Assembly: GCA_964471165.1 (NCBI GenBank)
Contig: CAYYEX010000003.1
Location: 1-54,761, forward strand
From: an uncultured Candidatus Saccharibacteria bacterium
Lineage (GTDB): Bacteria > Patescibacteriota > Minisyncoccia > Phycocordibacterales > UBA2100
Length of the DNA stretch: 54,761 nt
Direction: 5' to 3'
This document shows positions 10,901-36,422 of the stretch, in pieces. Numbering within the stretch: the first letter of the stretch is position 1; each line of letters opens with the position of its first letter. The position numbers and the translations under genes were made by a program. The notes below the pieces were generated by a model that did not search any database, had not been told where the DNA came from, and saw only the letters and a list, made by a program, of their open reading frames with translations.

Positions 10901-13900
10901 TTTCAAGTTCATCTGAGTCCTCTACAGAGTCAGCTTTCGATGTTGCTTGAGCGATAACTTTTTGTGAACGCGAGAAGAGCGCCTTGCCCTGGGAACGCGC
11001 AGTGTTGAGATTTTGCTCCGTTTGATTTTTTGGTTGTTGCATCGCTGTCAACAAGTTCACGTAGCCACGCAATTCAGCCGCGAGAGCCGCATCCCCCAGT
11101 GCACGAATGTTGTTCGACAATCGTGATGCTCCGTTTGCTGCATTTCTGAGCGTTGCATGCTCAGCTGGATTCGGCGTCGTAGTCAAACGGTCAAGGAGCG
11201 CTCGCGCGGAGCCCATCGTAGTCAAATTTCTTTCCGATTGTTCAATCAGAAGCTCCTGTTTTTTTACGCCTGCAGTTTTCTGAACTATCGCGTCTATTTG
11301 CTTCTTAAGGTCTTGCACACGAGCCTGCGCACTTTTGAGAGACGTACGCGTGTCGTCTAGTTTCTTCTGAAGCGTGGAATTGCTAGAACTATTATCCGGA
11401 GTTGTTTTGGTAATCGGTTCTGCAGGTTTTTCTGGCGAGGTCGTCTCGGTTTTCGTCGGAGCTGCTGGAATCTCAATAGAGCGATTCGGGCTCGGTATAG
11501 ATGTATCTGCCTGCGGAAGATCGGCTCCGCGAGTAACTTCCCCCTTGGCAATCGGACCCTCTGTCGTTTGCGGTCGTTCGTATCCTTCCATTGCATCCGC
11601 AGCCGGGAACTGCGAACCTTCTGGAATAATCATCGGAGCCTGTGGCCACGTCGCCGTATCAAGCCGTTTGAATATTTGATTGAGCGCGAGCGTTTCTGCA
11701 AAATCTGGAGCAATGAACTGCTCAACAGGGGCAGGTGGTTTAGACGCAGTTGCCGTCGACGTGATTGTTTCTTCAGCAGGGGTTTCTTTCTTCGCGTACT
11801 GTGTCGAACCCTGCGGGAGTGTCGATTGGTAAATGCTGGCTATCTTTTCCGCAGAAAACTTATCGGTCAGTCGTACTGAGTGTTCAAGGAATGTTTTTTC
11901 GTTGACGAGCTTAATAATCTGGTCCTGATTGGTGTAATCGAGTTTCGTGTTCGGTCCAATGCCAACCGCTTTGGAAATTCGGGCTATCATGCCTGCTGTG
12001 TCGTTTTCGTATGCTGGTGAAAGCCGGTGCATCAATTTAGAAATCGTGTCGTCGCCACGCTTTATCCATTTCTGCACGTTATTGAAGTCTGCCTGAGTAC
12101 CGACTTCCAGCGACGAAAATCTTCTCGGCTGTTTACCGAGCATCATGTTTCCCGGATTATTGTTGCTGATGCCCTTACCCTTCGCCTCAACACTGGTAGA
12201 AAACGGATTGAAGTCTGGGATGATGTCGCCCGTAAACGGTTGCGCAAAAAGAAGCGACGCTGCGATTGCCGAGCGCGCGAACGCCTGAGTCACTACTTTT
12301 GGAATATTTGGAGAGATGTACGGACGTGTTGGTGCGGCGCTCACCGGTGCCTCGTCACCCAGATCTGAGGTGCGTGAGTCCGAGGCAGTTGGATTGTCAT
12401 TTGTTTCGCTCGCCGAAAGCTGACCGTTGTCGTTTACTACGCGAGTCGCAGCGTCAGCATTATCGTTTGCCGTTGCAATCGCGTCATCCGCGGTGGTTTG
12501 CGCAGTACTAAATCCAAGACGCTCTCCAATCCCCGAAACAACTCCCGAGATTCCCGAACGCAATCCCGCTGTCGCAGCGCGAATGCCACCGACGGCGGAT
12601 TTGATTTCCGAAGCAACTGCGTTTTCAACTCGAGCCACTACCGACGTTTCTGCCGTCCGTGCAGCAAGTCCAGACGCGGCTTCAGGCACGAGTGCGGGCG
12701 GAATCAAGCCCTCACGCAAAGAACCCTTCGCAATTGCCAGCGCTTCAACTGGTGATTCCGCGCCTGCGAATGTGCCCTTTGCTTGAGCTCCGATATCGGC
12801 ATACTTTGCATTTTCCGCGGCAGTCAGTTTTGAATCCCACTTCGCAAGCGCAGACTTCATTTCCGGAGAAAGATTGCTCGGCAACGACGAACGAAGCTCG
12901 TTGTACACACTACGCGCATCGGCAACTGTGGACTTAAATACGTTTTCAATGTGCGCGTCTACCGCGTTGAGTGCAGTGGTTGGTTTGATCGTTGCATCGA
13001 GATTGGACGTCTGCACATTTATGCGTTCCCCGTATTTGGCCTGAACAGCGGTTCTCTCAGCATTCGAGAGGCCCGATGTGTTCAATAGCTCTTTCAGCGG
13101 CGCGTTCGTACTTGCTTCGTTGAGTCCGCGACGAAGCGCAAAATCTCGCGCCTCGCTCAATGTAGAAGCTGTAGAAATATCGGAGGATAGTGCCAGTCGC
13201 TCGTTCAAACTCATCCCATATCCGGGCTTACTGGAGTTTGCTTGCGCTGTATTGAAAAGTCGCGCGCCGAGGCCCTCAGTACTACTATTGGCAGCGAGCG
13301 CCTTTGCAACCTCATCCTTGTACCCTTTCGCCAGCGCCCCCTGAAGCTGGCTATCGAGTGCCGCGCTATCAACTACCACATTACGCTCAGCCGCATACGT
13401 GCCACCGCCCTCTTTGGTGCGACCAACGCGACCAAGCGCCTGCACAAGCTCTTCGCGCTCAAGCTGTGCAACTTCTTTTACAATATTGCCCGCCGTATCT
13501 TTCGTCAGCTTATCGCTTTTGGTGAGGATTGTTTGCACGTAATCGCCTTTGTAATTGAAACCTTCTATCCCTTTTTTATCCACGATAAATGCTGTTTGTC
13601 GCGTTGAGGCTTCTTCTGCAAGTGAGTTAAACGATTGTCGCGTTTCCTTGCCGTTGACGTAGACTTTTCCGTCGGCGCCGTACTCGACGAGTCGTGCAGC
13701 TTTTCCTTCCCCAGCAACAGCACGCATCGCCAACTGCGCCTCCTCAAAGGCGGCCGGCGTTAATGCGACGGTGAGCGTGTTTTTTCCTTCACCGATTGCT
13801 GCCTGGGCGCGGGCGTTGGCCGTCTCAGACGTCCATGCGGTTTTTGTGCGCGTCCCATCCGCAGCAATAGTCTCAACTTCAGTGCGGAACCCATTGAGAT

Positions 13901-16900
13901 CGACGCGCGATGGCTTGATCGCAAGCACACCTTCACTTCCAATGCCCGAACGAATAAGGTTCTGTAATCCTTCGGCCGTTCCGGTCATACCACCCACGAG
14001 CACGCCCTGATTTGTTGCGTAGATATGCGTAAGCGGTGTTTCTGCTTTTGTCGTGCTCACGAACGTATCAACTTTATTTGCGCCAGCACCTCGTCCGTTC
14101 ATTTTCGCAGCTGTAAGCGGAAGCGTGGGATCCGAAAACTGCATTTCTAATTGAGGCTTTCCAAGCTTATCCGTCGGAACATACTTTTCTGCACCCGAGG
14201 CGTCGCGTACGAGCTTGTAACCATTTACACCACCATCTTTGAGTTCGAGCGTTCGAAGCACCTGCTGTGTCGTACGATCCGAGGACGAGAGTCCGACGCG
14301 CTCAAGTTCCTTTTGCGCGGCTGCATTGAATCGCACAGCACCCACCTCTCCGTTGAGGTTTTGCTCCACCAAGTACATGGGTTTGTTACTTTTTGTAAAC
14401 TCGCGCTCAAATTTCGACGCATTTGCATCAAGCATTTCGCTCATTTGCACGCGATTGCCGGCACCCGTCCCTGAATACTTTTCTACCGTGCTCGGCACTC
14501 CTTCAAAACCGTTTTCGGTTTTACGCATGCCGAGTTTTGTCATCACATTGTCGACGGCCGCTTCTTCCGCAGCAGTCACCGCTCTGCGTGAGTCGCTAAT
14601 AACAGATGAGGTTCTCGAACCAGCAAGGTTGTGCACTTCATCTACAACCGCCTTTCTCGTTTGTCCGAGGGCCTGTCTGAGCGCCGTTTGTTCCGCTCCG
14701 GTACCGAGGGAGAGACCAACTAAGTGCCCGCGCGTTTCTGGCGCCATGGCGATTACAGACGCCGTGCCGTTTTCTGACATTTTTGCTGCCGCGATAAATT
14801 CGGAAGGATTCGCGCCTTTGATTGTTTTTACGGGAGCTCCGACTTCGTTAAGAAACTGTCCGTATTTTTCTCCAAATTTCGTAACGAGATCTTGTGTGGG
14901 CGCGAGGTATTCCCACTGCGCACCCTTGCCGAGCGTAAGGCGTGTGCCGATGTAGTCGCCGATACTCACCGCACTCTTACCGAAGCTTGTTGCTGCGTTG
15001 ATTGATTTACCATTTCCCACTGCATAGAGTGCAAGACGTTGACCTTCGCTGAGCGTTTCGACACCTTCGGCAAGCGCAGTGAACTTTTCTTGGATAGCGC
15101 GCCGTGCAGCCGCACGCTCGGCAACAGAAGCGTACTTCGCGGCATTGTATGCCTCTTCAGCTTTCAAGAATGCCTGCCCAATTTCTGGTTTTGTTGAATT
15201 TAATCCTTTCGGCAATGTGGAGGCAAGCTGCGCTTCAAGATTCGCCTTTGCTTGAGCGCTTGCAGCGTCTGCGACTTCGATCTCACGGGCTGTTGCACGC
15301 CCGGCGGCCGCCAAATCTTTTTGCACGGCAGCCACATCTGTGTACGTAAACCCAATTCGGTCTTCCACCTCCTTGAGCAATTTTGCATTTGCCTCGGTGA
15401 GTTTACCTGCCTGCGCCTCAGCAAAAATTGTACGCGAGTCGCCTCCGAGTGCTGTGAGCTCACGCTCCATTTGTGGCACTACATTTTTCGTGAGCTCTTG
15501 CATTGCCGGCGCATCCGCTCGCTCTATTTCTCGAAGAGCGGCCCTGTCTGCATTTATGGTTTCTGGTGTGACACGTGCAAACAACGACTCAGACACTTCG
15601 CGCGATGCCGGTTGCCATGAAGAATTCTCAGATGCGCGCACGAGCATTGCTTCGTTGTTTGTTGCACGCGCAAGCACCTCATACTCACGACCAGCGACAG
15701 CTCGCGTATCGACGACAATGCCTGATTTGTTGAGCTCGGCTGTTGCTCTTTCTAAATTTACTTCGGCTGCTGCGACACGCGCCTGCGCCTCGGCTGCTGC
15801 AATTCGTAATTCTTCGGGAGCACTCGATCCACCCAATAACCCGGTCGTAGATTCACTTGCCGTCACGCGCTCAGCAGCTGCTGTGGCATCCATTTTTGCC
15901 ACACTCACAGCAGAGGACTCAGAAACAAAGTTCTCCACGAGGCGTGCTTCAGAGGTACTCAGTGCGGCACGCTCGGCGTTGAAGCCGAATGATTCGAATG
16001 CCGCGCGTCCGCCCGCTTTTATCGGACCATAGACGAGTTGTCCCACAATCGCCACATCAGCAACTGCAATAGCGCGCTCAACTGCACAACCGTTTAATGC
16101 GCACGTCGCCGCCTCTTTACCGTCAGCCGCAAACGCCGGCATTCCGCCATCAGTGAGTTCATTCCCCCACGCGCCAAGCGTTTGCAAACCGTGTGTTGCC
16201 GCAGCTGAAACGTCGAGCGTCAACTTAGCGGCAAGAGGGATCATGCCGTCGAAACCCGCTTTAAATATTTCGCCGTAGGTGCCGACGAGCTCGCTTCCTT
16301 TTTTCAAACTATCCGTCCATTCATGCAACTTTTTTGCGGCCGCTCCTTCAGTGTCATATGCGCGATCGACGATCTTGTCGTATCGCGAGTCCAAATCATC
16401 CAAATTTCCCGTTCGTGCGATTTCTGCATTCTCGGCTATATCGGCGCGTTCTGCCCTGAGTCGTTCGATTACGCGCTCAAGCCTACCAACTTCCGCATTC
16501 CACGCCGCCTCACCTCGAGGAATTTCGCCGTTGCCACGAAACGTAGCGGGATTCGACGCTCGTACTTTTTCGAGCTGTCTTTCCGCCATTGTAATCGCGT
16601 TATCTTTCGCCTGCTCCTCCTTTTTGATTGCCTGGTACACGTGACTCTCCGGCGTTAATCCCGCATCAAACTTTTGCTGAGCAATTATCGAGTCGCGTGC
16701 GTTGGCCGCATACGCATTGTATTCGGCGGTAAGACTCGCAACTTTCAGTTGATCCTGGCTTGAATATATTGGTCTGCCGTTACTGTCGTAACCGAGGGGC
16801 TTAATCTCACTCACCTCATCATTAAATTTCTGAGTGGTCTCGCTGAAGTTGTTCAGCATTTCCTTCGCGTTGTTGCCCTCGGGTTTTGCGAGCTGCAATA

Positions 16901-18500
16901 TTGGATCCCCTGCGTATTGAGTTTTGTACCAGTCGCCCGCTAGACCGGCAGCTTTGTTTTCGAGAATACTCGCAACGGCATTGTTTTCGATGTAGGTCTT
17001 CATCGAATCGCCCAAATCTTCTCTCATCTCCTTGGCGTCGCCCGGGTCAGCAAGCACGAGTCGGTTACCAATTCGCTCAACGCCGTAGTCATTCAAGACC
17101 TCCTGTATTTCTTTGAGGGCTTTGTCTGATTCGGAGCGTGGAACTACGGAGTCACCAAGACATCCTATGTATCCACACGTACTTTTTTGAACTGCATCGA
17201 TTTTGTCTTGAAGTGCTTTCTGTTCTGCTTGCTGCTCCGGCGTGAGTTTTGAATCACCGCCTTCTGGTGTGCCACAACTGCCCAACGTGCACACCCCCTT
17301 GTTGAGGGCGGCCAGGTCTTGCGGATTGTTTTTAAAATCAAGATTGCCCCTGTCGAGCGGATCATCAGCAACCTCGTCGCCGGCTTTGGGATTTCTAATC
17401 GCCTCGTTGTCGAGCGGACCCCCAGTGAATTGGTCCCACGCGCGCCGAGCTTCTGCGATCGCTTCCTTGTCGCCGCTTTTTACTGCAGCAGTGTAGTCGT
17501 CGCTGAGTTCTCTGAGTCGTGCGGAATCCAACTCCTCACGTTGTTTTATTGGGTCAATTTCAGGTTCACCGCCAAACGGATCTCGCCTCCATTCGTTCAA
17601 CGTATCTTGCGCATAATCTTGAACACGTTTCGAAAGGTCCGACACTTCATCGCCAATCTTTTTCCAAGTATCTGCTACAGGGTTCGTTTTGTCTGCGTCG
17701 GTACCATCTCGAGCGCCATCAGTTCCATCCGGATTTACATCAAAACCAGTTATTGGATCGGATTTGCGAGCAGCGTCGAACAGACTTCCCCCCGCAGTCT
17801 CAGTGGGAGTATCAGGCGACTCAACTTTTGGCTGTAGTGTTGCTTCTTCGCCCTTGAGCCAATTCCACAATCCGCCCTTTGCCTCGGCCTCTTTGAGTTG
17901 CTCAGCGAAACTGTTTACTTCTGGTACGGGTGTTTTTACATCGGGAACATCCTCGCATCGCCCGACGATACAGTTGCCCCAGGTATCGTATTTCGGTGAG
18001 TCATCTTGTTTCGGCTCTGTTTTTGGCTGCTCATCGGGAGTAGGACCCGGCGGTGTCGGCATGCTTGGTGGCGAACCACCTTCACCCGGCTTTGGCTCCT
18101 CTGGCGGTGGGACTGTGCCCGAAGGCGGTTCCGTTGCCGGTGCGCCGCCGGAACCCTCTGTTGGTTGGCCAGGGCATGCTTTGCCGTCACATAATCTCGC
18201 TTCACATCTTTTCTCCGCGACGCAAATACCTTTTACTTCTCCAACCCCAGCTGGATCCTCCCAACATATGCCCACTTTGCAGCCCTTTGTATTTTTTCCC
18301 TTTATGCATTTGGGTGCCTTGGAATCAGTTTCAGCAGCCTTGTTTGGCTCCATGCCGCACTCACAGTCTTTGTGGAACGGCTGACACATGTTGTTCGCAA
18401 ATCCACCCATTGCGCGAGCTACATGTGGTTGTAAAAAAAGAGTCGCAGAAAATGCAAAAAGTAGAACAAGAAAAGCGGCCGCAAAGCGACGCGTTAGCAT
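4929..18500 (-). CDS. Giant (4,523 aa) exported multidomain protein: signal peptide, Cys/Pro-rich stalk, coiled coil, SF2/SecA-like ATPase, zincin peptidase, zeta-toxin-like kinase, ART-like module, C-terminal hydrophobic anchors and Ig-like domain
   Basis: One uninterrupted ORF. N-terminus is MLTRRFAAAFLVLLFAFSATLFLQPHVARA. Motifs located by codon position are:
- ATSFGKS (K1175), DEVH (1287-1290), GMTGTA (1505), QALGRVGR (1687);
- NNPGN (~2113);
- VAHELGHYV (H3000) plus ELQADALAG;
- GGPGAGKS (K3547);
- LYRG (R3797) / SNS (3813-3815) / EQE (3871-3873);
- hydrophobic stretches encoded near nt 6060-6240 and 5620-5700. Confidence 0.9.
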   Translation of the reverse strand: MLTRRFAAAFLVLLFAFSATLFLQPHVARAMGGFANNMCQPFHKDCECGMEPNKAAETDSKAPKCIKGKNTKGCKVGICWEDPAGVGEVKGICVAEKRCEARLCDGKACPGQPTEGSGGAPATEPPSGTVPPPEEPKPGEGGSPPSMPTPPGPTPDEQPKTEPKQDDSPKYDTWGNCIVGRCEDVPDVKTPVPEVNSFAEQLKEAEAKGGLWNWLKGEEATLQPKVESPDTPTETAGGSLFDAARKSDPITGFDVNPDGTDGARDGTDADKTNPVADTWKKIGDEVSDLSKRVQDYAQDTLNEWRRDPFGGEPEIDPIKQREELDSARLRELSDDYTAAVKSGDKEAIAEARRAWDQFTGGPLDNEAIRNPKAGDEVADDPLDRGNLDFKNNPQDLAALNKGVCTLGSCGTPEGGDSKLTPEQQAEQKALQDKIDAVQKSTCGYIGCLGDSVVPRSESDKALKEIQEVLNDYGVERIGNRLVLADPGDAKEMREDLGDSMKTYIENNAVASILENKAAGLAGDWYKTQYAGDPILQLAKPEGNNAKEMLNNFSETTQKFNDEVSEIKPLGYDSNGRPIYSSQDQLKVASLTAEYNAYAANARDSIIAQQKFDAGLTPESHVYQAIKKEEQAKDNAITMAERQLEKVRASNPATFRGNGEIPRGEAAWNAEVGRLERVIERLRAERADIAENAEIARTGNLDDLDSRYDKIVDRAYDTEGAAAKKLHEWTDSLKKGSELVGTYGEIFKAGFDGMIPLAAKLTLDVSAAATHGLQTLGAWGNELTDGGMPAFAADGKEAATCALNGCAVERAIAVADVAIVGQLVYGPIKAGGRAAFESFGFNAERAALSTSEARLVENFVSESSAVSVAKMDATAAAERVTASESTTGLLGGSSAPEELRIAAAEAQARVAAAEVNLERATAELNKSGIVVDTRAVAGREYEVLARATNNEAMLVRASENSSWQPASREVSESLFARVTPETINADRAALREIERADAPAMQELTKNVVPQMERELTALGGDSRTIFAEAQAGKLTEANAKLLKEVEDRIGFTYTDVAAVQKDLAAAGRATAREIEVADAASAQAKANLEAQLASTLPKGLNSTKPEIGQAFLKAEEAYNAAKYASVAERAAARRAIQEKFTALAEGVETLSEGQRLALYAVGNGKSINAATSFGKSAVSIGDYIGTRLTLGKGAQWEYLAPTQDLVTKFGEKYGQFLNEVGAPVKTIKGANPSEFIAAAKMSENGTASVIAMAPETRGHLVGLSLGTGAEQTALRQALGQTRKAVVDEVHNLAGSRTSSVISDSRRAVTAAEEAAVDNVMTKLGMRKTENGFEGVPSTVEKYSGTGAGNRVQMSEMLDANASKFEREFTKSNKPMYLVEQNLNGEVGAVRFNAAAQKELERVGLSSSDRTTQQVLRTLELKDGGVNGYKLVRDASGAEKYVPTDKLGKPQLEMQFSDPTLPLTAAKMNGRGAGANKVDTFVSTTKAETPLTHIYATNQGVLVGGMTGTAEGLQNLIRSGIGSEGVLAIKPSRVDLNGFRTEVETIAADGTRTKTAWTSETANARAQAAIGEGKNTLTVALTPAAFEEAQLAMRAVAGEGKAARLVEYGADGKVYVNGKETRQSFNSLAEEASTRQTAFIVDKKGIEGFNYKGDYVQTILTKSDKLTKDTAGNIVKEVAQLEREELVQALGRVGRTKEGGGTYAAERNVVVDSAALDSQLQGALAKGYKDEVAKALAANSSTEGLGARLFNTAQANSSKPGYGMSLNERLALSSDISTASTLSEARDFALRRGLNEASTNAPLKELLNTSGLSNAERTAVQAKYGERINVQTSNLDATIKPTTALNAVDAHIENVFKSTVADARSVYNELRSSLPSNLSPEMKSALAKWDSKLTAAENAKYADIGAQAKGTFAGAESPVEALAIAKGSLREGLIPPALVPEAASGLAARTAETSVVARVENAVASEIKSAVGGIRAATAGLRSGISGVVSGIGERLGFSTAQTTADDAIATANDNADAATRVVNDNGQLSASETNDNPTASDSRTSDLGDEAPVSAAPTRPYISPNIPKVVTQAFARSAIAASLLFAQPFTGDIIPDFNPFSTSVEAKGKGISNNNPGNMMLGKQPRRFSSLEVGTQADFNNVQKWIKRGDDTISKLMHRLSPAYENDTAGMIARISKAVGIGPNTKLDYTNQDQIIKLVNEKTFLEHSVRLTDKFSAEKIASIYQSTLPQGSTQYAKKETPAEETITSTATASKPPAPVEQFIAPDFAETLALNQIFKRLDTATWPQAPMIIPEGSQFPAADAMEGYERPQTTEGPIAKGEVTRGADLPQADTSIPSPNRSIEIPAAPTKTETTSPEKPAEPITKTTPDNSSSNSTLQKKLDDTRTSLKSAQARVQDLKKQIDAIVQKTAGVKKQELLIEQSERNLTTMGSARALLDRLTTTPNPAEHATLRNAANGASRLSNNIRALGDAALAAELRGYVNLLTAMQQPKNQTEQNLNTARSQGKALFSRSQKVIAQATSKADSVEDSDELEKIRKGLASELSAANANILTLQKVEQSTAAELKQAPAPESLQAPPVPEVQPVPTTPAETTPTPQETVVPELPNPIEVAPEAEKVPEFKQVPGGDDKLALPPDFSPDLRMYPNDLVGTSPSYTYASPISLKLALYAALGVRTYLPQSMIDKLDDVATMETETISFTKEELDSIRWKDMDKNAYQFALGHLNPDWSLKTGYVPPVANSGQEAGSQLMKDMADNAKVPSAETPEKVDAPESGTLTSAKPETLTPPLDVTTGGVPKGEVTRGPDLPAPQTPFPAADPMEGYDRPETWTGSIPRGEVTRGLNLEAPGTASKVQPTVQPTQPAPVRTQKEFEDLKLNYRLGRQTDQTAKEIIPAPVNTPAGLPNTTPLPRLASMSSAAVRAEISTSFERMQDYLETQARRNGGQYRRAELVIVDTTTALPKFTDIGSHFDIGSGKIVMDIAQLRKMEGYYSNTPGELVRYVVAHELGHYVAYMTGTVQASRVKLADYKVMPPLSEAIFTTPGAIEELQADALAGNMLVGSGLVGKDVFQTLRYAIGSLGDDLLRAQYSSNAPNPVFDGHSSGAQRANAFYDGIVNSTFDESMLMLGVRPDWNRVADSKDYKGEINWGNIVHSAVNPGQYAEFEGPLVEETVSESLTSFKPMIQPPSPEFAPLPTPVNPAPANPAPTSPAPANPVPANPTPANPAPTPGDRTPQPQPTNNTRTREEGQGEQAIARVDSPPSAPPAPTPFAPQAAQPLPTIQGQGSGKLDTRNTGNITVNAPAPTPAPTSMQGRGSALLDTRTGGTVTVNAPAPETISNKGNIDLLKADAAIANAIAKAFNDVITGVGSLLGRTQSKSAPNTAQSAQAEEIETESIAGQMLDHGVISLDDYREIIASQAREEAATPETEPVTPKNIEDVRNGYLNDPIAQTDAFKNFPRAKLTGDDAILQEASIAKYLAEKDALISQYQSLFGNKTANPDLARLLFKDIGYVGTNSGAVQKVSGELADEVWKRALQNEGKYAMLFVGGPGAGKSSTVSKFEGLLDGTVAAAMDGSVANVDAARARIAEIEAAGKIPVVEYVYRDPLDAWENGVISRMNGNSIDAGRVVPIQVFIATYKRSLEIAKTLSAEGTVRIDAIDNSRGVENISQMPPEDLQKLKYSSSVESKIRARTKELLAEGVITEEQYRAITGSEAPAKIAIAEAEPVVPVEVDTPAAAKAAEPIVETTSGQARSTPDVPYMQHSVPSGSPLKSIETIPIRELTPQMITGLQSEQAPDGYRYLYRGISRAYQSPYRDQFFSNSPDIAISYGKNVPESVLVRVMAPSEEIFKHVNVSGSMTANNGIGDVYQFPATWFTSEQEVVANQTAMNELIDTVITTDSLPDRVTKQQLELLSNRVLTDADIARKGYVLNPSGTYYERAKSAAVNLTDAAQSLAKAAVEAGQKGTFIPREAYVAPSGQNSPSVRQDAVRADGSGSVTKNINELNAFWAGLDAAQNGGAKTFSLQEVANINAKAYQDWRAEQSVWTRFRSAVPEPVTGVEPYVAPEEVVVPAQNAPSTPAPVTPEAAPEAAQPTTPQGWSAGGMVWSVVRSAFLPTNGFFSNLHALAWTGGISGVMWAVDGSNPYVTMPLLNLGVKAAITFPKALFNYAFDSEYRNDANATVKRVTGTANAAPDTTQPVQPTNTSPVTTTENLAPATSAVTPTPIPTTPPAAAEQVEPGNVPPPTLGTTPTIGGVGSNGMGGVTGGGGSGSGGGGLGSWFSKAKWWAGGLLGGGGLYAVLPSNPNTDTPAKTPAGEEKIGSTITTNKPDVTPGPAVPDVKKYPTETKPDVFPPPPTPKTPPKTDTPKTEAPKPQPQTRTDTPKPNPNPSPSPSPSPQPNTPGTSPSGGGGAGAFNGIMSALSGFLKGISGMLNPQPAQPTQTQPLVRGPISVQVSAQPNPILTGESSTITWTSVNATACRAFKTQTEQVAIGAPDTSFTVGPLTAKATYTIYCTNGTGAYATGSVQVLVK
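8845..8934 (-). repeat. Six tandem 15-nt units inside the giant ORF, encoding (P-A-N-P-x) repeats
   Basis: Plus-strand units are GGATTCGCAGGAGTT / GGATTCGCTGGTACT / GGATTTGCGGGGGCC / GGGCTGGTTGGTGCG / GGATTGGCAGGAGCT / GGGTTTACCGGAGTA. They translate on the minus strand to NPAPANPAPTSPAPANPVPANPTPANPAP. Confidence 0.8.
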
Positions 18501-18566
18501 TCATTAATTGTAGCAGTAGAGCCACGCAATTCGTCTCATTGTGTGGCTCTACCTGTGCATATTTCT
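18501..18566 (-). promoter_or_regulatory. Conserved upstream element, copy 1: 10-bp inverted repeat (18543-18552 / 18516-18525, 17-nt spacer) followed by extended -10 TGcTACAAT, then 6 nt, then the ATG of the giant gene
   Basis: Minus strand reads agaaatatgcacagGTAGAGCCACacaatgagacgaattgcGTGGCTCTACTGcTACAATtaatgaATG. It can be aligned base for base with 20297-20362. Confidence 0.55.
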
Positions 18567-18592
18567 AGTAACCGTTCGGGAGAAAACAGTTG

Positions 18593-20296
18593 CTACTGCT
18601 TGACCTGATTTTTCTTCGTGCGCTGTGCTGCTTTTCCTATTTCCACATTACTGGTGGTACTGGGTAAAAATTCCAGTGATATCCCCATGGTCTCCCGAGC
18701 GCCCTTGATGAAGTTTTCCAAAGCGCGCTCTCGCCGCGCGCTATCTCCCGACTGTGTGGCCAAATAGAGTTCCTTACGCAGCAGTTGGAAATCCAGTTCC
18801 TTCGGGGCTGTCGGGCGCACGTCGTACGAACCGACCCAGAGGCCGCCCGGCTCCACAAGGAGCGTTGTTATCTCGTAGCGGGGGTCAGTACTCAAATACC
18901 GCACATCGTCGGGAAACACGGTCTTTGTGTCAGCATAGCCGGATGGCCCCGTAAGGAGCTGCTCAGGGAACGGCGTCGACACGTCCATATCGGGAAATCG
19001 GGCTTTGAATCCAGCCTTGCTCGAATCGACAGGGTGGTCATGTGTCATGATCAAATATTTGAAATCAGGAAACTTTGCGGCCTCTTCGAGCGCCCGTTTC
19101 TCAAGCAGTCTGCCGAGTGCAGGTGGAATTATTTTCACGTCCCCGTTGCCGAGTAATGTGAGGCAGCTTTCAAATTCCGCGTCACAGATCGTGGCGGCTG
19201 CTGTTTCAACTGGTTTTCCGCTCGGACCAATTTCTGATTGCAAAAGCCGCACCAGACTAGTCGGCGGAAAGTTTTCCAACCGTTTAATTTCACTTGGCGG
19301 GAGCGTGCTCACGCGACCCCACGGCATCTGTGGCGTCTCCGGCACTTTTGGATTCTCCAATTTTTTCTGATTGATCTCAAAAAGTCTTTGTAGCAGGTCC
19401 CTCAGCTTCAGCATGAGCTGCGGCAAAATGCCTTGTGGTTGTACCGCCTTCTCCTCAGCGCGAAATCCTGATTCCGGATTTGAAACATTCTGACGCCCAG
19501 GTTCATTGAGTGCCAGCACCTTCATTGGTTCTGGTGGAGCAAAGCCCGTTGCATCTTTTCGCGGCGGTATCTCGTAGCGCTCCTCTCTCAAGTTTGTGAC
19601 CTCGGGTTCCCTTCGCTGTTCCACGATTGGTTCTATTTTCTTTTGCTCAGAAAAATCGACCGTCTTTGTTTCTTCGATCTTTTCCTGTTTTTTTGTCAAT
19701 GTGTCGAGCCCGTTGGTAAACACAGATTTTTCAGCACTCTTCGTAAATGGTTCCCATGCTGCAAGTGCTTTTTCCACATCCGACTTTGTTCCTTGACCGT
19801 TCTCGAGTGTGCCACGCATCAACTCAAGTCCTGTCGAAGTTCCTGTTTGGTTGGGTTTCGGTGTCTCTGGCGGCTTATCATCTTTCGGTGGTGGTATTTG
19901 CGGCATCTGTGGTGGCTGACCGCCTTTTTCATCTTCTTTTCCCTTACCACCGGAGCATCCCGGTGAACCTTTGTTTGCGCCCTCACAATCTGCCTGTTGT
20001 GGCTTTTCTCCTTCGGCAGTGGCTGTGGCTTCACATTTTTGAGGCGCCACACATTTCCCGGTAACCGGCCCTTTCACGGTTTGGACCTTGCACGGGCAAT
20101 CTTTACCGCCGATCTTAATTCCCGCTTCTGTTTTTATTTCTTTGTTGCATGGCTCGCTGTACACCTTGTTGATCACGCATTCAGGATTGATACCTTCCGC
20201 TGCTTTTGCCGAGGGAATATTCAAAATCACTATCGACGCTCCAATAACGACCGCGACATACACGATAAGAGCGGCCGCATAGCGACGCAGTTGCAT
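18593..20296 (-). CDS. Secreted or membrane-anchored Cys-rich/Pro-rich protein (567 aa), paralogous at its N-terminus to the giant protein; C-terminal globular domain of unknown function
   Basis: N-terminal hydrophobic segment is AALIVYVAVVIGASIVILNIPSAKA. GKCVAPQKCEA matches GICVAEKRCEA in the giant protein. A Pro-rich tract follows in both, and AAWEPFT here matches RAWDQFT there. Confidence 0.7.
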   Translation of the reverse strand: MQLRRYAAALIVYVAVVIGASIVILNIPSAKAAEGINPECVINKVYSEPCNKEIKTEAGIKIGGKDCPCKVQTVKGPVTGKCVAPQKCEATATAEGEKPQQADCEGANKGSPGCSGGKGKEDEKGGQPPQMPQIPPPKDDKPPETPKPNQTGTSTGLELMRGTLENGQGTKSDVEKALAAWEPFTKSAEKSVFTNGLDTLTKKQEKIEETKTVDFSEQKKIEPIVEQRREPEVTNLREERYEIPPRKDATGFAPPEPMKVLALNEPGRQNVSNPESGFRAEEKAVQPQGILPQLMLKLRDLLQRLFEINQKKLENPKVPETPQMPWGRVSTLPPSEIKRLENFPPTSLVRLLQSEIGPSGKPVETAAATICDAEFESCLTLLGNGDVKIIPPALGRLLEKRALEEAAKFPDFKYLIMTHDHPVDSSKAGFKARFPDMDVSTPFPEQLLTGPSGYADTKTVFPDDVRYLSTDPRYEITTLLVEPGGLWVGSYDVRPTAPKELDFQLLRKELYLATQSGDSARRERALENFIKGARETMGISLEFLPSTTSNVEIGKAAQRTKKNQVKQ

Positions 20297-20362
20297 CTGT
20301 TCATACTAACAGTAGAGCCCCGCAATTAGTTCAATTGAGGGGCTCTACCTGTGAATACTTCT
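20297..20362 (-). promoter_or_regulatory. Conserved upstream element, copy 2: inverted repeat (20339-20348 / 20312-20321, 17-nt spacer), extended -10 TGtTAGTAT, 6 nt, then the ATG of the 567-aa gene
   Basis: Minus strand reads agaagtattcacagGTAGAGCCCCtcaattgaactaattgcGGGGCTCTACTGtTAGTATgaacagATG. The geometry is the same as copy 1. The A-to-C change in one arm is matched by a T-to-G change in the other. Confidence 0.55.
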
Positions 20363-20380
20363 CCCCGCCCACCCCGTTAG

Positions 20381-20490
20381 CTTAGCGAGAAGCTTCCTTT
20401 ATGGAACCCTCGGGAGGAGCGGCGGCGACGGACGGAAGAAAATCTCACCAGAGATTTTCTGTGGTTCCAGAAAGGAAGCTTCTCGCGAAG
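20381..20490 (-). repeat. Long imperfect inverted repeat (about 27 bp of pairing) enclosing a second 10-bp hairpin, immediately after the groEL stop codon
   Basis: Arm 20385-20408 (gcgagaagcttcctttatggaacc) pairs with 20463-20486 (ggttccagaaaggaagcttctcgc) at 23 of 24 positions, and 20381-20383 pairs with 20488-20490. The inner hairpin is 20437-20446 / 20451-20460 with loop ACCA. No U-run follows on the minus strand. Confidence 0.6.
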
Positions 20491-20492
20491 CG

Positions 20493-22130
20493 CTAATCCA
20501 TTCCCATCCCACCCATCCCCGGGTCTCCTGCCTTCTTTTCTTCCGGAATATCCGCAATAGCAGCTTCGGTTGTGAGCAATACAGCTGCAGCAGACGCTGC
20601 ATTCTCCACACCGAGTCGCGTTACTTTCACCGGGTCAATGATGCCGGCTTCAATCATGTCGACAATCGTTTCGGTTGCTGCATCGAATCCCTTGTTGTCT
20701 GCACCTGAAATCTGCTCCACGAGCACCATTTCGTCTTCGCGTCCGGTGTTGCGCACAATCTGCTTGAACGGCATCGAGAGTGCACCCACGAGAATGCCGT
20801 AGCCTGCACTCATTTCGGATGTTCCGCTCTTGGTCATTTTTTCCATGTTTTTCACAAGACGCGCTGCCACCTTTACGAGCGATGCACCGCCACCAGGAAT
20901 GATTCCTTCGGCAATTGCTGCTTTCGTTGCATTCACCGCGTCTTCGATTTTGTCTTTGAGATACTTTGCCTCTGTTTCGGTTGCTGCACCCACACGAATA
21001 ACCGCAACTCCGCCGGTAAGCTTCGCAACGCGCTCAGCAAGCTTTTCCTTATCGAACTTCGAAGTTGTCGCGTCGAGCTGTTTCTTGAGTTGTGCCGCGC
21101 GCTTCGTTATTTCCTTACTGTCTCCCTTGCCACCCACAATCACGGTCGAATCTTTTGTTGAAACAACGCGGTTTGCGCGACCGAGCATGGTGAGCTCCGC
21201 CTTCTCAAGCGTAAGACCGAGATCGTCGGAGATCATCTGTGCTCCAACAGTAATTGCGATGTCGGAGAGCATTTCCTTTTTGCGGTCGCCATATCCTGGT
21301 GCCTTGACCGCGAGTACGTTGAAGTTCCCGCGCAAGCGATTGAGCACGAGTGTCGTGAGTGCTTCGCCATCAACATCGTCGGCAATAATCACGAGGTCCT
21401 TCTTGCCGGATTGCGCCACCTTTTCAAGCAGCGGCAGAATGTCTTTGATACTCGAAATCTTTTTGTCTGTAATGAGAATTGGCGCATCCTTCACTTCGGC
21501 CTCCATGCGCTCGGCATTCGTAATCATGTAGGCTGAAACGTAGCCTTTGTCGAACTCCATACCCTCTACGTAATCCGTTTCAATACCGATAGACTGCGAT
21601 TCTTCCACAGTAACCACGCCGTCCTTGCCCACTTTTTCAACAATGTCGGCAATTGCTTCACCGAGTTCGCGGCTTTCTGCCGAGATGGTAGCTACCTGAC
21701 GAACGTCTTCACGACCCTTCACAGGCTTTGCCATTTTCTTAAGCTCTTCCACCGCATCCTTTGCAGCGAGCTCGATGCCACGGCGAACCATCATCGCGTT
21801 TGCACCCATCGCGGTCTTTTTGAGCCCGTCAGTGATGATGGCCTGTGTGAGGACAACCGCGGTCGTGGTGCCGTCGCCTGCTTTGTCGTTTGTCTTGTTG
21901 GCCACTTCTTTCACAATTGATGCACCCATGTTCTCGAACTTGTCTGCAAGCACGATTTCTTTCGCAATTGAGACACCGTCGTTGGTGATGGTTGGACCGC
22001 CCCATGATTTGTCGATTGCGACGTTTCGTCCTTTTGGCCCGAGCGTCACTTTCACTGCGCCCGCTACGATGTCTACGCCGCGTTTGAGCGCTGCGCGAAC
22101 TTCTGTGTCAAAGATTACCTGTTTTGCCAT
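20493..22130 (-). CDS. groL: Chaperonin GroEL (Cpn60)
   Basis: MAKQVIFDTEVRAALKRGVD, VTLGPKGRNV, AGDGTTTA and a C-terminal GMGGMGMD tail. Full length, 545 aa. Confidence 0.97.
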   Translation of the reverse strand: MAKQVIFDTEVRAALKRGVDIVAGAVKVTLGPKGRNVAIDKSWGGPTITNDGVSIAKEIVLADKFENMGASIVKEVANKTNDKAGDGTTTAVVLTQAIITDGLKKTAMGANAMMVRRGIELAAKDAVEELKKMAKPVKGREDVRQVATISAESRELGEAIADIVEKVGKDGVVTVEESQSIGIETDYVEGMEFDKGYVSAYMITNAERMEAEVKDAPILITDKKISSIKDILPLLEKVAQSGKKDLVIIADDVDGEALTTLVLNRLRGNFNVLAVKAPGYGDRKKEMLSDIAITVGAQMISDDLGLTLEKAELTMLGRANRVVSTKDSTVIVGGKGDSKEITKRAAQLKKQLDATTSKFDKEKLAERVAKLTGGVAVIRVGAATETEAKYLKDKIEDAVNATKAAIAEGIIPGGGASLVKVAARLVKNMEKMTKSGTSEMSAGYGILVGALSMPFKQIVRNTGREDEMVLVEQISGADNKGFDAATETIVDMIEAGIIDPVKVTRLGVENAASAAAVLLTTEAAIADIPEEKKAGDPGMGGMGMD

Positions 22131-22162: not shown

Positions 22163-22540
22163 TTAGTTCAAGATTGCGAGAATGTCGCTTTCGCGCACGA
22201 GGAAGTGCTCGTGGTCTTCATCGATACTCACTTCGTTATCCCAACCAGAGTTGAAGATAACTTTATCGCCCACACTCACCGTGACTACTATCACCTTTCC
22301 GTCGTCACTTATGCGGCCGGGACCAACTGCAAGTACTGTGCCGAGCTTCGATTTTTCTTTCTGCGCACTATCAGGAAGGATGATGCCAGAGGCCGACTTC
22401 TTTTCCGGTAAATCGTCGCGTCGCACGAGTACGCGATCCGAAAGGGGTTGCACCGGGGCCTTCGCCTTTGGTGCGGTAGACTTCACCGACTTTTTGCTCA
22501 CTTTTTTTGGTGCTGATTTCTTCATCTTTTTCTTTGCCAT
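22163..22540 (-). CDS. groS: Co-chaperonin GroES with a ~30-aa Lys-rich N-terminal extension
   Basis: The core PLSDRVLVRR...SGIILPDSAQEKSKLGTVLAVGPGR...GDKVIF is canonical GroES. It is preceded by MAKKKMKKSAPKKVSKKSVKSTAPKAKAPVQ, with no internal Met before the core. Confidence 0.9.
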   Translation of the reverse strand: MAKKKMKKSAPKKVSKKSVKSTAPKAKAPVQPLSDRVLVRRDDLPEKKSASGIILPDSAQKEKSKLGTVLAVGPGRISDDGKVIVVTVSVGDKVIFNSGWDNEVSIDEDHEHFLVRESDILAILN

Positions 22541-27615: not shown

Positions 27616-27652
27616 AAAAAAACGACCGGAACTGGTTTCCGCGTCGTTTTTT
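27616..27652. terminator. Bidirectional intrinsic terminator between convergent genes
   Basis: A7 run, then stem ACGACCGGAA / TTCCGCGTCGT (one bulge) with loop CTGG, then a T6 run. Confidence 0.6.
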
Positions 27653-31743: not shown

Positions 31744-31779
31744 AAACCCCGGAGCAGCGGCGCTGCTCCGGGGGGTTTT
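31744..31779. terminator. Strong bidirectional intrinsic terminator between convergent genes
   Basis: 12-bp GC-rich stem CCCCGGAGCAGC (31747-31758) / GCTGCTCCGGGG (31762-31773) with loop GGC. It is flanked by AAA and GGTTTT. Confidence 0.75.
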
Positions 31780-34985: not shown

Positions 34986-35052
34986 ATCAGAGCCGGAGTT
35001 TTCCCCTTGCAGGGATTTGTGCGGCTGTTACCATGCGACCTACAGCTGAATA

Positions 35053-35151
35053 TCGTATCAAGAGCGCGGTGAAAGTTCTGGCTTTATGAACCGCCGGCAA
35101 CCCTGACTTCAAAATCAGAAGGTGCCCTCCAGACCCTTTCGGGAGATACAT
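35053..35151 (+). promoter_or_regulatory. SAM-I (S-box) riboswitch aptamer upstream of metK
   Basis: GUAUCAAGAG..GCGGUGAAAG..AUGAACCGCCGGCAACC, a P3 hairpin CUGA-CUUCAAAA-UCAG, AAGGUGCC, a P4 hairpin CCC-UUUC-GGG, and AGAUAC closing P1 with GUAUC. The order and conserved strings match the SAM-I consensus from memory. Confidence 0.8.
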
Positions 35152-35161
35152 TTGTCGATGC

Positions 35162-36389: not shown

Positions 36390-36422
36390 GACCGTGCGGC
36401 GCGAGCCGCACGGTCTTTTTTT
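36390..36422. terminator. Strong intrinsic terminator after metK (also serves the convergent gene)
   Basis: Stem GACCGTGCGGC / GCCGCACGGTC with loop GCGA, followed by T7. An A-rich stretch lies upstream. Confidence 0.85.

What the first reader, a model, noticed from the sequence alone, without database searches (positions are those of the whole stretch)
18501..20362. Shared ~55-nt upstream element with a covarying 10-bp inverted repeat abutting an extended -10 box, 6 nt from each ATG
Copy 1 is at 18501-18566 and copy 2 at 20297-20362. On the minus strand they read GTAGAGCCAC-N17-GTGGCTCTAC-TGcTACAAT-taatga-ATG and GTAGAGCCCC-N17-GGGGCTCTAC-TGtTAGTAT-gaacag-ATG. Four features are shared:
- The arms are 10 bp in both copies, and the one difference (A/C) is matched by a compensating change (T/G) in the partner arm.
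- The 17-nt loops are 13 of 17 identical.
- The upstream flank AGAA(A/G)TAT(G/T)CACAG is shared.
- The spacing to the TGnTAnnAT box and to the ATG is identical.
This is either an operator overlapping the -35 region of two co-regulated, probably leaderless promoters, or a conserved RNA hairpin at the 3' end of the preceding transcripts. Either way it ties the two secreted-protein genes into one regulon.
Basis: seen in the sequence. Interest (0 to 1): 0.68.

Follow-up and report, generated by a model that had tools for sequence, protein, structure and literature searches.

The report
Hairpin-plus-leaderless-promoter cassette, giant secreted genes
Two neighbouring genes for large secreted proteins in an uncultivated Patescibacteria (Kaiserbacteria-like) genome carry the same ~100-base start module: a small upstream box, a hairpin that is conserved by structure, a promoter only 6 bases before the ATG, and a conserved first 35 coding bases. 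It is a real, lineage-specific expression cassette built mostly from ordinary parts, not a wide regulon.

Summary
A 101-nt direct repeat (18466-18566 and 20262-20362, minus strand, 77% identical) holds a 10-bp inverted repeat that abuts TGnTAnnAT, 6 nt before each ATG.

Three corrections apply:
- The repeat runs 35 nt into both coding sequences.
- The loops are 12/17 identical, not 13/17.
- TGnTAnnnT-N6-ATG is a habit of this genome (8 found, 0.9 expected), that is, ordinary leaderless promoters.

The module sits after groESL, in front of hypervariable giant secreted-protein genes, in about 12 related Paceibacterota genomes.
- **Hairpin.** It is kept by compensatory changes (5-8 of 10 pairs). 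Its loop varies from 3 to 17 nt, and it lies 0, 1, 2 or 11 nt from the -10 box. It is present at every post-groEL site but lost at most second-gene sites. This argues against a fixed-geometry operator and favours an RNA hairpin that ends or insulates groESL transcription, although the window copies lack a U-run.
- **Candidate protein-contact site.** The better candidate is an upstream box, (C)TCCACAG, always 25-27 or 36-38 nt from the TG.
- **Copy number.** I found no more than two copies in any genome or locus examined, so the "regulon" is two adjacent paralogous cassettes.

Interest is modest.

The parts
18553..18566 (-). Copy 1 upstream flank, ending in the box CACAG (18553-18557). It is the window's version of the clade box (C)TCCACAG and lies 37 nt from the TG of the -10 box.
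   Evidence: In relatives the box lies 25-27 or 36-38 nt from the TG at every site.
18516..18552 (-). Copy 1 hairpin: GTAGAGCCAC-N17-GTGGCTCTAC, with an inner CAAT/ATTG stem.
   Evidence: Its closest relatives are the post-groEL hairpins of L004, L023 and L124.
18507..18515 (-). Copy 1 extended -10 box, TGCTACAAT. It is followed by the 6-nt spacer 18501-18506 and the ATG at 18498-18500.
18466..18500 (-). Copy 1 conserved 5' coding block (MLTRRFAAAFL). It contains a predicted small hairpin at +9..+26 (18475-18492), followed by CGCUUUUCU.
20349..20362 (-). Copy 2 upstream flank, ending in the box CACAG (20349-20353), 37 nt from the TG.
20312..20348 (-). Copy 2 hairpin: GTAGAGCCCC-N17-GGGGCTCTAC, with an inner CAATTG/TAATTG stem.
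20303..20311 (-). Copy 2 extended -10 box, TGTTAGTAT. It is followed by the spacer 20297-20302 and the ATG at 20294-20296.
20262..20296 (-). Copy 2 conserved 5' coding block (MQLRRYAAALI), with the same predicted +9..+26 hairpin (20271-20288).
4929..18500 (-). Giant secreted protein gene (4523 aa). It has a signal peptide and a Cys-rich N-terminal module, plus Zeta_toxin-like and Zn_peptidase-like stretches.
18593..20296 (-). 567-aa secreted protein gene. Its signal peptide and Cys-rich N-terminus look paralogous to those of the giant gene by eye. It has no Pfam match and belongs to a very small family.
20493..22130 (-). groEL, with groES at 22163-22540. This is the co-directional upstream transcription unit that the ancestral hairpin follows.
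20380..20492 (-). Covarying structured RNA (~115 nt) between the groEL stop codon and copy 2. It belongs to the same intergenic region and may be part of the groESL 3' UTR that the hairpin closes.

Best explanation
The two copies are paralogous 5' expression cassettes of a fast-evolving family of large secreted proteins. This family sits directly downstream of groES-groEL in a Kaiserbacteria-like (Paceibacterota/Patescibacteria) lineage.

Each cassette has four parts:
1. An upstream box, (C)TCCACAG.
2. A hairpin selected for its structure.
3. An extended -10 promoter whose transcript starts at, or within a base of, the A of the ATG (a leaderless mRNA).
4. About 33 nt of 5' coding sequence conserved at the nucleotide level.

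**How it most likely works**
- The hairpin acts in RNA, at the end of the co-directional upstream transcript. Ancestrally this is groESL with its structured 3' UTR. The hairpin serves as a terminator or 3'-end-protecting stem, and so insulates the leaderless promoter that begins immediately after it.
- The T/A-rich TGnTAnnAT box stands in for the weak U-rich tail.
- The hairpin is not a fixed-geometry dimer operator.
- The element most likely to contact protein on DNA (RNA polymerase or an activator) is the box. Its distance to the -10 box is held at about 26 or about 37 nt, one helical turn apart, whatever lies in between.

**Shown**
- The repeat, the hairpin and its covariation.
- The genome-wide leaderless signature.
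- The box phasing.
- The restriction to these genes.

**Inferred**
- Termination or insulation by the hairpin.
- The transcription start site.
- Protein binding at the box.
For: **Organism and synteny**
- groEL's best matches are Paceibacterota/Kaiserbacteria.
- The order secG, then groES-groEL, then large secreted gene(s) is conserved.

**The hairpin is present at every post-groEL site examined**. These sites are win2, L004a, L023a, L124a, L129a, L015, L128a, L005a, L006a, L105a, L126a, and L001a. L001a is inferred to be such a site from a shared sequence block.
- Loops range from 3 to 17 nt.
- Arms differ by compensated changes, for example GTAGAG/CTCTAC, GCAGAG/CTCTGC, ACAGAG/CTCTGT, ACAAAGACC/GGTCTTTGT and GCGGCGCC/GGCGCCGC.
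- On the arms-only alignment, 98.9% of cells are paired and 8 of 10 pairs have changes on both sides (5 of 10 without L126a). No shuffle out of 500 reached this, and structures slid by 1-3 columns collapse to 23-51% paired.
- In L105a the hairpin is followed by UUCGUUUUG, and in L006a by UUGUUACUAUU. These are terminator-like tails.

**The hairpin is weak or absent where termination is not needed**
- At second-gene sites the 3' arm is gone in L004b, L006b, L079b and L001b.
- In L127 the upstream neighbour is divergent. There the hairpin is a weak 6-bp stem at one site and absent at the other.

**The hairpin's register to the -10 box varies** (0, 1, 2 or 11 nt).

**Leaderless promoter**
- TGNTANNNT-N6-ATG occurs 8 times against 0.92 expected, mostly at starts of long ORFs.

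**Box phasing**
- An unbiased regex, CCACA[AG]-N20-45-ext-10-N5-8-start, was run over about 230 kb of related DNA. It hits only these sites, plus one overlap inside the L127a hairpin arm.
- The spacings are 26, 26, 26, 27 and 36, 36, 37, 37, 37, 38. The window copies are at 37, L126a at 25 and L126b at 26.
- These spacings are reached by at least six different internal layouts.

**Specificity**
- The covariance model R1 gives 80.4 and 70.7 bits for the two window copies. The next hit scores 17.7 bits and lies inside a CDS.
- All hits in 242 kb of relatives are the known sites.
- AGAGCC-N4-30-GGCTCT is found only at these sites.
Against: - The window hairpins have no U-run. Their tails are UGCUACAAUU and UGUUAGUAUG.
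- The genome's clear terminators carry obvious A and T tracts: 27617-27652, 31747-31773, 36390-36415, 38204-38235 and 48100-48130.
- The simple terminator scan did not flag either hairpin.
- The stems are almost pure Watson-Crick palindromes. Sense and antisense fold energies are equal and wobble pairs are very few. That pattern suits DNA-level selection at least as well as RNA-level selection.
- The 5' arm GTAGAGCC survives unchanged next to the box at three sites that have lost the 3' arm (L004b, L006b, L079b). The arm sequence therefore has a role beyond pairing.
- Within a genome the two sites share arm sequence (GTAGAGCC in the window, GCGGCGCC in L126). A trans-acting factor could explain that as well as recent duplication could.
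- L127a keeps a small hairpin although its upstream neighbour is divergent.
- No transcript data are available.
Confidence: 0.5

Rival explanations
1. Operator. The inverted repeat is duplex DNA bound by a dimeric regulator that sits over the -35/spacer region and represses or activates the two leaderless promoters together.
For: - The palindromes are near-perfect Watson-Crick with no strand bias.
- The AGAGCC/GGCTCT core is conserved in about 10 genomes, while loops and flanks diverge.
- The two sites within one genome share arm sequence (window, and L126).
- The half-site centre distances of 16-17 and 27 bp differ by about one helical turn.
- The site overlaps the core promoter, where repressors usually bind.
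Against: - Half-site spacing is not fixed, and complementarity runs right up to a 3-5-nt loop in the short forms. That is a hairpin signature, not an operator signature.
- The hairpin's centre moves relative to the -10 box, to about -28, -34 or -39.
- The core sequence itself is replaced through compensated changes in L105a and L126.
- Four of six second-gene sites have lost one half-site yet keep the promoter and the box.
- The two window copies differ at a mirrored pair of positions, which a single regulator would not require.
- The conserved neighbourhood holds no regulator gene with a recognised Pfam domain. Several called genes there have no Pfam hit.
Confidence: 0.15
2. DNA-structure element. 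The palindrome extrudes as a cruciform under negative supercoiling, next to a promoter that lacks a -35 element. It would make the giant-gene promoters sensitive to supercoiling or stress, or it would form a composite activator site together with the CCACAG box.
For: - The palindromes are Watson-Crick-only.
- The long-loop forms have an AT-rich centre (AATTG).
- The element is adjacent to the -10 box at most sites.
- The distances box to 5' arm and box to -10 box are quantised by about 11 bp.
- The 5' arm persists next to the box without its partner.
Against: - There is no direct evidence.
- The short GC-rich forms (CCCCC-ggac-GGGGG) extrude poorly.
- The element is dispensable at most second-gene sites.
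- Cruciform-regulated promoters are rare (own knowledge).
Confidence: 0.1
3. No present function for the hairpin. The shared block would simply be the residue of a recent tandem duplication, or of gene conversion, of a gene's 5' end.
For: - The block is sharply bounded at -66..+35.
- The two proteins share an N-terminal module that looks paralogous by eye.
- The locus is highly plastic: gene bodies are unrelated between close relatives.
Against: - The hairpin is retained in about 12 genomes whose groEL is only 83-95% identical. It shows multiple compensatory changes, while the surrounding intergenic DNA cannot be aligned.
- The two window copies are only 77% identical, so the duplication is not recent, yet they keep perfect 10-bp pairing.
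Confidence: 0.08
4. Dispersed palindromic repeat (REP/MITE-like), or a recombination or transposase target hairpin.
For: - The element is a palindromic hairpin.
- In one relative (L015) an IS200-like Y1 transposase gene flanked by palindromes sits in the same intergenic region.
Against: - There are only two copies in 54.7 kb and none elsewhere in 242 kb of relatives.
- The palindromes flanking the L015 transposase (CCGGGACGTCCGACGTCCCGG) are unrelated in sequence.
- The element always lies at the same genomic position.
Confidence: 0.03

Closest known systems
Rho-independent (intrinsic) terminators placed back to back with the next gene's promoter
   Same: - A stable GC-cored stem-loop follows a co-directional, highly expressed operon (groESL).
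- It is kept by compensatory change, with free loop sequence and length.
- Two relatives (L105a, L006a) have a U-rich tail.
- It is lost or weak where there is no upstream co-directional transcript, or where the upstream gene is a paralogue.
   Different: - The window copies have no U-run. The promoter's TGnTAnnAT occupies the place of the U-tract.
- The stems are almost free of G-U pairs.
- The 5' arm sequence is conserved beyond what pairing requires.
- The long-loop form (14 bp with a 9-nt loop, or 10 bp + 1x1 mismatch + 4-6 bp) is unlike the genome's own canonical terminators.
Leaderless-mRNA promoters of Actinobacteria and Deinococcus-Thermus (the bacterial leaderless class of GeneMarkS-2; own knowledge)
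   Same: - A -10-like TAnnnT lies 6-7 nt before the start codon.
- There is no Shine-Dalgarno sequence.
- The signature is enriched across the window.
   Different: - Here a TG extension is nearly always present and no -35 element is recognisable.
- The lineage is Patescibacteria. Two literature searches found no description of leaderless promoters in this group.
UP elements and class I activator sites, which are promoter-upstream sites that depend on the face of the helix
   Same: The box lies at about -58..-53 or -47..-42. These two positions are one helical turn apart and are held through many rearrangements of the intervening DNA.
   Different: - The box is not A/T-rich like an UP element.
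- No binding protein is known.
- The phasing is inferred from about 16 related sites, not from experiment.
CIRCE/HrcA operator of groESL and dnaK operons
   Same: It is an inverted repeat associated with groESL. CIRCE is reported to act both as DNA and in the mRNA (own knowledge).
   Different: - The sequence is unrelated to TTAGCACTC-N9-GAGTGCTAA.
- It lies downstream of groEL, not upstream of groES.
- Its spacer is variable.
Conserved 5' cassettes of variable surface-protein gene families, for example Mycoplasma vsp/vlp/vsa (own knowledge)
   Same: A promoter region plus signal-peptide coding sequence is conserved at the DNA level, in front of tandem genes whose bodies diverge or are swapped.
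   Different: - There are only two genes per genome.
- There are no invertible segments and no recombinase.
- No sequence variation was seen between the three assemblies of this strain.

Membership tests
Intrinsic (Rho-independent) terminator | Stable GC-rich stem-loop | tested here: met
   The window copies fold at -24.1 and -32.8 kcal/mol (z = -3.6 and -4.3). In the hairpin-only folds the stems give -17 to -32 kcal/mol across all post-groEL sites.
Intrinsic (Rho-independent) terminator | U-tract immediately 3' of the stem | tested here: inconclusive
   The window tails are UGCUACAAUU and UGUUAGUAUG, with no U-run, and the scan did not flag them. L105a (UUCGUUUUG) and L006a (UUGUUACUAUU) are U-rich. 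The genome's other terminators have clear T-tracts.
Intrinsic (Rho-independent) terminator | Location after a co-directional transcription unit | tested here: met
   The hairpin follows groEL or the first large gene at the hairpin-bearing sites. In L015 an IS200-like insertion lies between groEL and the hairpin, and L001a is assigned only by a shared sequence block. It is weak or absent in L127, where the neighbours are divergent.
Intrinsic (Rho-independent) terminator | Transcripts actually end there | not testable with these tools
   No transcriptome data are available.
Extended -10 / leaderless promoter | TGn + TAnnnT, with the start codon at the expected +1 (6-7 nt after the hexamer) and no SD | tested here: met
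   The window copies read TGCTACAAT-taatga-ATG and TGTTAGTAT-gaacag-ATG. The pattern occurs 8 times against 0.92 expected. The same layout is found at the 18 related sites tabulated, with 8 nt rather than 6-7 at L126a.
Extended -10 / leaderless promoter | TSS at the A of the ATG | not testable with these tools
   This needs dRNA-seq or 5' RACE.
Dimeric-regulator palindromic operator | Fixed half-site spacing and fixed register to the promoter | tested here: not met
   Loops are 3-5 or 17 nt. The hairpin-to-TG distance is 0, 1, 2 or 11 nt.
Dimeric-regulator palindromic operator | Both half-sites kept at all co-regulated promoters | tested here: not met
   The 3' arm is absent in L004b, L006b, L079b and L001b.
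Dimeric-regulator palindromic operator | A cognate DNA-binding protein | not tested
   No regulator domain is recognised by Pfam among the conserved neighbours, though several neighbouring genes have no hit. The rest of the genome was not available.
CIRCE (HrcA operator) | Consensus TTAGCACTC-N9-GAGTGCTAA upstream of groES or dnaK | tested here: not met
   The sequence read is unrelated, and the element lies downstream of groEL. The groES upstream region shows no CIRCE either.
REP/MITE-type dispersed palindromic repeat | Many dispersed copies per genome | tested here: not met
   There are two copies in the window and none elsewhere in 242 kb of relatives. The full source genome was not available.
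Any Rfam family | Match to a curated covariance model | tested here: not met
   Searches give nothing at these sites, at the gathering threshold or at E <= 5.

The most novel reading that the evidence does not exclude
The whole -66..+35 block would be one dedicated control module for giant secreted, toxin-like proteins of an episymbiotic Patescibacterium.
- A regulator or RNA-polymerase contact binds the phased CCACAG(+GTAGAGCC) box.
- The palindrome next to the -10 box couples promoter activity to groESL (stress) transcription or to supercoiling. It could do so through polymerases terminating over the -10 box, or through cruciform extrusion.
- The invariant +9..+26 hairpin followed by a U-run, at the 5' end of the leaderless mRNA, acts as an early checkpoint. 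In this reading, a translation-coupled attenuator operates before the cell commits to a 13.6-kb transcript.
Probability: 0.12. Interest if true: 0.6.

Novelty: new variant of a known kind. Interest (0 to 1): 0.35.

Why it matters
Almost nothing is known about transcription signals in Patescibacteria/CPR, and no genetic system was available to this analysis.

This locus offers a compact natural data set:
- About 16 homologous sites with many internal rearrangements.
- A leaderless extended -10 promoter, with a partner box at a spacing locked to the helical repeat.
- A hairpin maintained by covariation.
- The whole module in front of the cell's largest secreted proteins. These carry Zeta-toxin-like and Zn-peptidase-like stretches, and Amidase_2 domains in relatives, and are plausible host-interaction factors.

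If the module is confirmed, it would give usable promoter and terminator parts and a candidate regulatory site for this lineage.

It does not reveal a new kind of mechanism, and the 'regulon' it defines is only two adjacent genes.

Tried and rejected
**Searches that led nowhere**
- The word-indexed protein search with the 567-aa protein found only one homologue.
- The same search with the first 900 aa of the giant protein found nothing, probably because low-complexity words filled the candidate list.
- The metagenome-contig scan with the 5' CDS pattern returned only GC-rich chance matches.
- Most of the 101 genome contigs stretches were chance matches of the same kind. Ten stretches, from six Paceibacterota contigs, were true.
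- Rfam gave no match at the gathering threshold or at E <= 5.
- Literature searches on leaderless translation in CPR/Patescibacteria gave nothing specific.

**Tests that were uninformative or negative**
- Strand test: sense and antisense folding energies and wobble counts show no bias. The strand, and the choice between RNA and DNA, could not be decided this way.
- Population variation or loop inversion: the three assemblies carrying this locus are identical over 16.9 kb, and all long loops have the same orientation.

**Ideas considered and rejected**
- The box or the 5' arm as a -35 hexamer. The spacers would be 21 nt or more.
- CIRCE.
- A REP/RAYT target.
- A tRNA fragment, suggested by GGTAGAGC resembling a D-arm. 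ARAGORN found nothing there.
- An invertible promoter. The segment between the arms is only 3-17 nt.

**Weak extra hits judged to be chance**
- 5767-5826: 17.7 bits, inside the giant CDS.
- 44607-44650: the box lies 29 nt from a TGATACAGT, out of phase.
Full report
**1. What is in the window**

On the minus strand, groES (22163-22540) and groEL (20493-22130) are followed by a 567-aa ORF (18593-20296) and a 4523-aa ORF (4929-18500).
- Both large ORFs begin with a typical signal peptide (MQLRRYAAALIV..., MLTRRFAAAFLV...) and a Cys-rich segment that looks paralogous by eye (GKCVAPQKCEA / GICVAEKRCEA).
- The giant protein has weak Zeta_toxin and Zn_peptidase matches. The 567-aa protein has no Pfam match.
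- The 567-aa family is tiny: 21 representatives at E <= 1e-3 among 1.84 billion.

- The hairpin pattern occurs twice, against 0 expected.
- The pair is the top direct repeat of the window: 101 nt, 18466-18566 and 20262-20362, 77% identical.
- The conserved block is sharply bounded. Identity is 22% from -120 to -67, 76% from -66 to -1, 80% from +1 to +35, and 30% from +36 to +95.
- The loops are 12/17 identical, not 13/17.
- Both hairpins fold well beyond shuffled controls, and the stem continues into the 'loop'.

**2. The extended -10 box 6 nt from the ATG is a habit of this genome**

TGNTANNNT-N6-ATG occurs 8 times in the window against 0.92 expected (0 of 100 shuffles reach 8). Besides the two copies, it sits at the starts of the ORFs ending at 40346, 46003, 48034 and 50048, among others. 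None of these starts has a Shine-Dalgarno sequence. This part of the finding is therefore an ordinary leaderless promoter of this organism. Only what lies upstream of it, and just downstream in the CDS, is specific to the pair.

**3. Organism and relatives**

groEL's closest matches are Paceibacterota and Candidatus Kaiserbacteria MAGs. I fetched the loci around groEL proteins that are 83-95% identical. I also scanned 185,579 species genomes with the conserved 5' CDS pattern. Together these gave about 12 distinct genomes with the same synteny: secG, groES-groEL, then one or two very large secreted-protein genes.

The gene bodies are almost unrelated between genomes. Only the signal peptide and Cys-rich module, plus scattered domains, match. 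The locus is therefore hypervariable behind a conserved 5' cassette. In the genome scan no genome had more than two copies, and these were always the adjacent pair.

**4. Anatomy across sites**

'a' sites follow groEL:
- win2, L004a, L023a, L124a, L129a, L015: box + 10-bp arms + 17-nt 'loop', abutting TGCTACAAT (TGTTAGTAT in win2).
- L128a: box + GTAGAGCCCCA-ttttg-TGGGGCTCTAC, abutting the -10 box.
- L005a and L006a: box + 10-nt filler + an 11-bp hairpin with a 4-nt loop, abutting the -10 box (0 or 1 nt).
- L001a and L105a: box + short hairpin + 11-nt filler.
- L126a (groEL 83% identical): TCAACAG + AGGCGGCGCCC-tcat-GGGGCGCCGCCT, abutting TGGTACAAT.

'b' sites lie between the first and second large gene:
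- win1: full long-loop hairpin.
- L126b: TCCACAT + GCGGCGCCAC-gaat-GTGGCGCCGC + 2 nt.
- L004b, L006b, L079b: AATCTCCACAGGTAGAGCC is kept, but there is no 3' arm.
- L001b: the box only.

In L127 the upstream neighbours are divergent genes. One site has a 6-bp stem and the other has none.

L015 is also an 'a' site. There an IS200-like transposase gene flanked by its own palindromes has been inserted between groEL and the cassette.

**5. The hairpin is selected as a structure**

- On an arms-only alignment of 11 sites, 98.9% of cells pair. Eight of 10 pairs show changes on both sides (5 of 10 without the distant L126a). No shuffle out of 500 reaches this, and partners slid by 1-3 columns collapse to 23-51% paired.
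- Caveat: I chose the arms because they pair, so the percentage paired is partly circular. The independent fact is that a perfect stem of 10 bp or more exists at the homologous place at every 'a' site.
- Loop length (3-17 nt), register to the -10 box (0, 1, 2 or 11 nt) and even the core sequence change. AGAGCC becomes AAGACC in L105a and GCGCC in L126, each with compensation.
- This is not how a dimeric operator behaves.
- Together with presence at all 'a' sites but only 2 of 6 'b' sites, and decay in L127, it fits an RNA hairpin that closes the upstream co-directional transcript. That transcript is the highly expressed groESL operon.
- L105a (UUCGUUUUG) and L006a (UUGUUACUAUU) have terminator-like tails.

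**6. What does not fit a plain terminator**

- The window copies have no U-run, whereas the genome's other terminators carry obvious A and T tracts. The simple scan does not flag the window hairpins.
- The stems are almost purely Watson-Crick. Sense and antisense energies are equal.
- GTAGAGCC persists next to the box at three 'b' sites that have lost its partner.
- The two sites within one genome share their arm sequence (window, and L126).
- For these reasons I hold the terminator/insulator reading at about 0.5. I keep an operator (0.15) and a DNA-structure role (0.1) as rivals.

**7. The phased box**

- Just 5' of the hairpin region, every clade member has (C)TCCACA(G/A). The window copies read TTCACAG and TGCACAG.
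- Its distance to the TG of the -10 box is 25-27 nt at L004b, L006b, L079b, L128a, L126a and L126b.
- It is 36-38 nt at win1, win2, L004a (where the box is degenerate), L023a, L124a, L129a, L015, L005a, L006a, L105a, L001a and L001b.
- No site has a distance between 28 and 35 nt.
- An unbiased regex that allowed 20-45 nt, run over about 230 kb of related DNA, returned only these sites. The one exception is an overlap with a hairpin arm in L127a.
- The same total length is reached by at least six different internal layouts: long loop, short hairpin with an upstream filler, short hairpin with a downstream filler, hairpin alone, half hairpin, and no hairpin.
- I read this as a DNA-level, helical-face constraint between the box and the promoter. 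The box is therefore the best candidate for a contact with polymerase or an activator. Common descent inflates the counts, so this remains an inference.

**8. The 5' coding block**

- Codons 4-9 are CGT CGC NNT GCG GCC GCT in nearly all sites, synonymous positions included.
- Codon 6 is hypervariable (Y/F/P/S/N/V).
- Codons 16 and 20 vary freely at the third position.
- The invariant bases form a predicted hairpin at +9..+26, which includes a U-G pair, with codon 6 as its loop. It is followed by CGCUUUUCU.
- Because the stem never varies, covariation can neither support nor contradict it. The pattern of constraint nevertheless points to a nucleic-acid-level role at the very 5' end of the leaderless mRNA.

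**9. Regulon**

- The covariance model R1, built from seven long-loop sites, scores the two window copies at 80.4 and 70.7 bits. The next hit is 17.7 bits inside the giant CDS.
- In 242 kb of relatives every hit is a known 'a' or 'b' site.
- Within the sequence I could reach, the 'regulon' is therefore the two adjacent paralogous cassettes. The remaining ~119 kb of the 173.5-kb source contig and the rest of the genome could not be scanned.

**10. Verdict**

The promoters are leaderless, and the RNA-hairpin option is favoured over the operator option.
- It is a lineage-specific composite of known kinds of parts, with two unexplained extras: the phased box and the invariant 5' mRNA hairpin.
- Interest is modest.
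- The more novel item nearby is the covarying ~115-nt RNA directly after groEL (20380-20492). It has 35 predicted pairs, 22 of them with compensatory changes in five sequences, and no Rfam match.

Noticed in passing
window 20380-20492 (minus strand): A structured RNA of ~115 nt lies immediately after the groEL stop codon.
- It has a long outer stem (29-nt arms) and an inner hairpin, ACAGAAAATYTC-tggt-GARATTTTCT.
- It has a C/U-rich single strand with an anti-SD-like CCUCC.
- Across 5 relatives it shows 35 predicted pairs, 22 of them with compensatory double changes.
- It has no Rfam match.
- It is present in the window, L004, L023, L124, L129 and L007, occurs as variants in L005, L128 and L127, and is absent in L006 and L105.
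- It is a candidate new 3'-UTR element or sRNA of groESL.
   Followed up: partly
window 18475-18492 and 20271-20288 (minus strand): An invariant predicted hairpin lies at +9..+26 of both leaderless mRNAs.
- The stem is GCGUCGC/GCGGC(C)GC, which includes a U-G pair.
- Its loop is the hypervariable codon 6.
- It is followed by CGCUUUUCU.
- Synonymous sites of codons 4-9 are frozen across about 14 sites.
   Followed up: partly
window: ATGs at 40346, 46003, 48034, 50048, 32440 (minus); 33038 (plus): Many unrelated genes start 6 nt (8 nt at 33038) after a TGnTAnnnT box (TAGGAT without the TG at 32440) with no Shine-Dalgarno sequence. Leaderless extended -10 promoters appear to be common in this Patescibacterium.
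   Followed up: partly
L015 6355-7150: In one relative an IS200-like Y1 transposase gene (Pfam Y1_Tnp, E = 2e-6) lies on the opposite strand, inserted between groEL and the cassette. It is flanked on both sides by the palindrome CCGGGACGTCCGACGTCCCGG, a REP/RAYT-like arrangement.
   Followed up: partly
L004 ~11760-11800; L023 and L001 (upstream of their 'a' sites): A second conserved block, CTCGAGAGCCCTAAAAAC-N11-13-CGCTCGCTT, lies between the post-groEL RNA and the hairpin in L004, L023 and L001. Similar CGCACTCGCTTG repeats occur in L127. The block is absent from the window. It contains AGAGCC, so it could compete with the 5' arm for the 3' arm. That idea was not tested.
   Followed up: no
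window 4929-18500 and the equivalent genes in L004-L129: The secreted giant genes behind the cassette are hypervariable between close relatives (groEL 88-95% identical).
- Only the signal peptide and Cys-rich module, plus scattered domains, are shared.
- The domains seen are Zeta_toxin-like, Zn_peptidase-like and, in relatives, Amidase_2.
- The C-terminal ~220 aa of the 567-aa protein recurs at the C-terminus of L124's 1644-aa protein and as stand-alone ~250-aa proteins.

   Followed up: partly
window 35052-35152 (+): A SAM riboswitch (RF00162, 48.6 bits) lies upstream of the ORF 35309-36361.
   Followed up: no
window 54311-54424: Two 32-nt direct repeats (91% identical) lie 82 nt apart. They contain the palindrome CCCATTCGCGCGAATGGG and form a 31-nt-arm inverted repeat (D11, I2).
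   Followed up: no
window 142-168 and 586-612: 27-nt inverted repeats (85% complementary), built on TATACCGATATATCGGTATAC, bracket the 154-aa ORF 127-591 next to tRNA-Ser (1-86).
   Followed up: no
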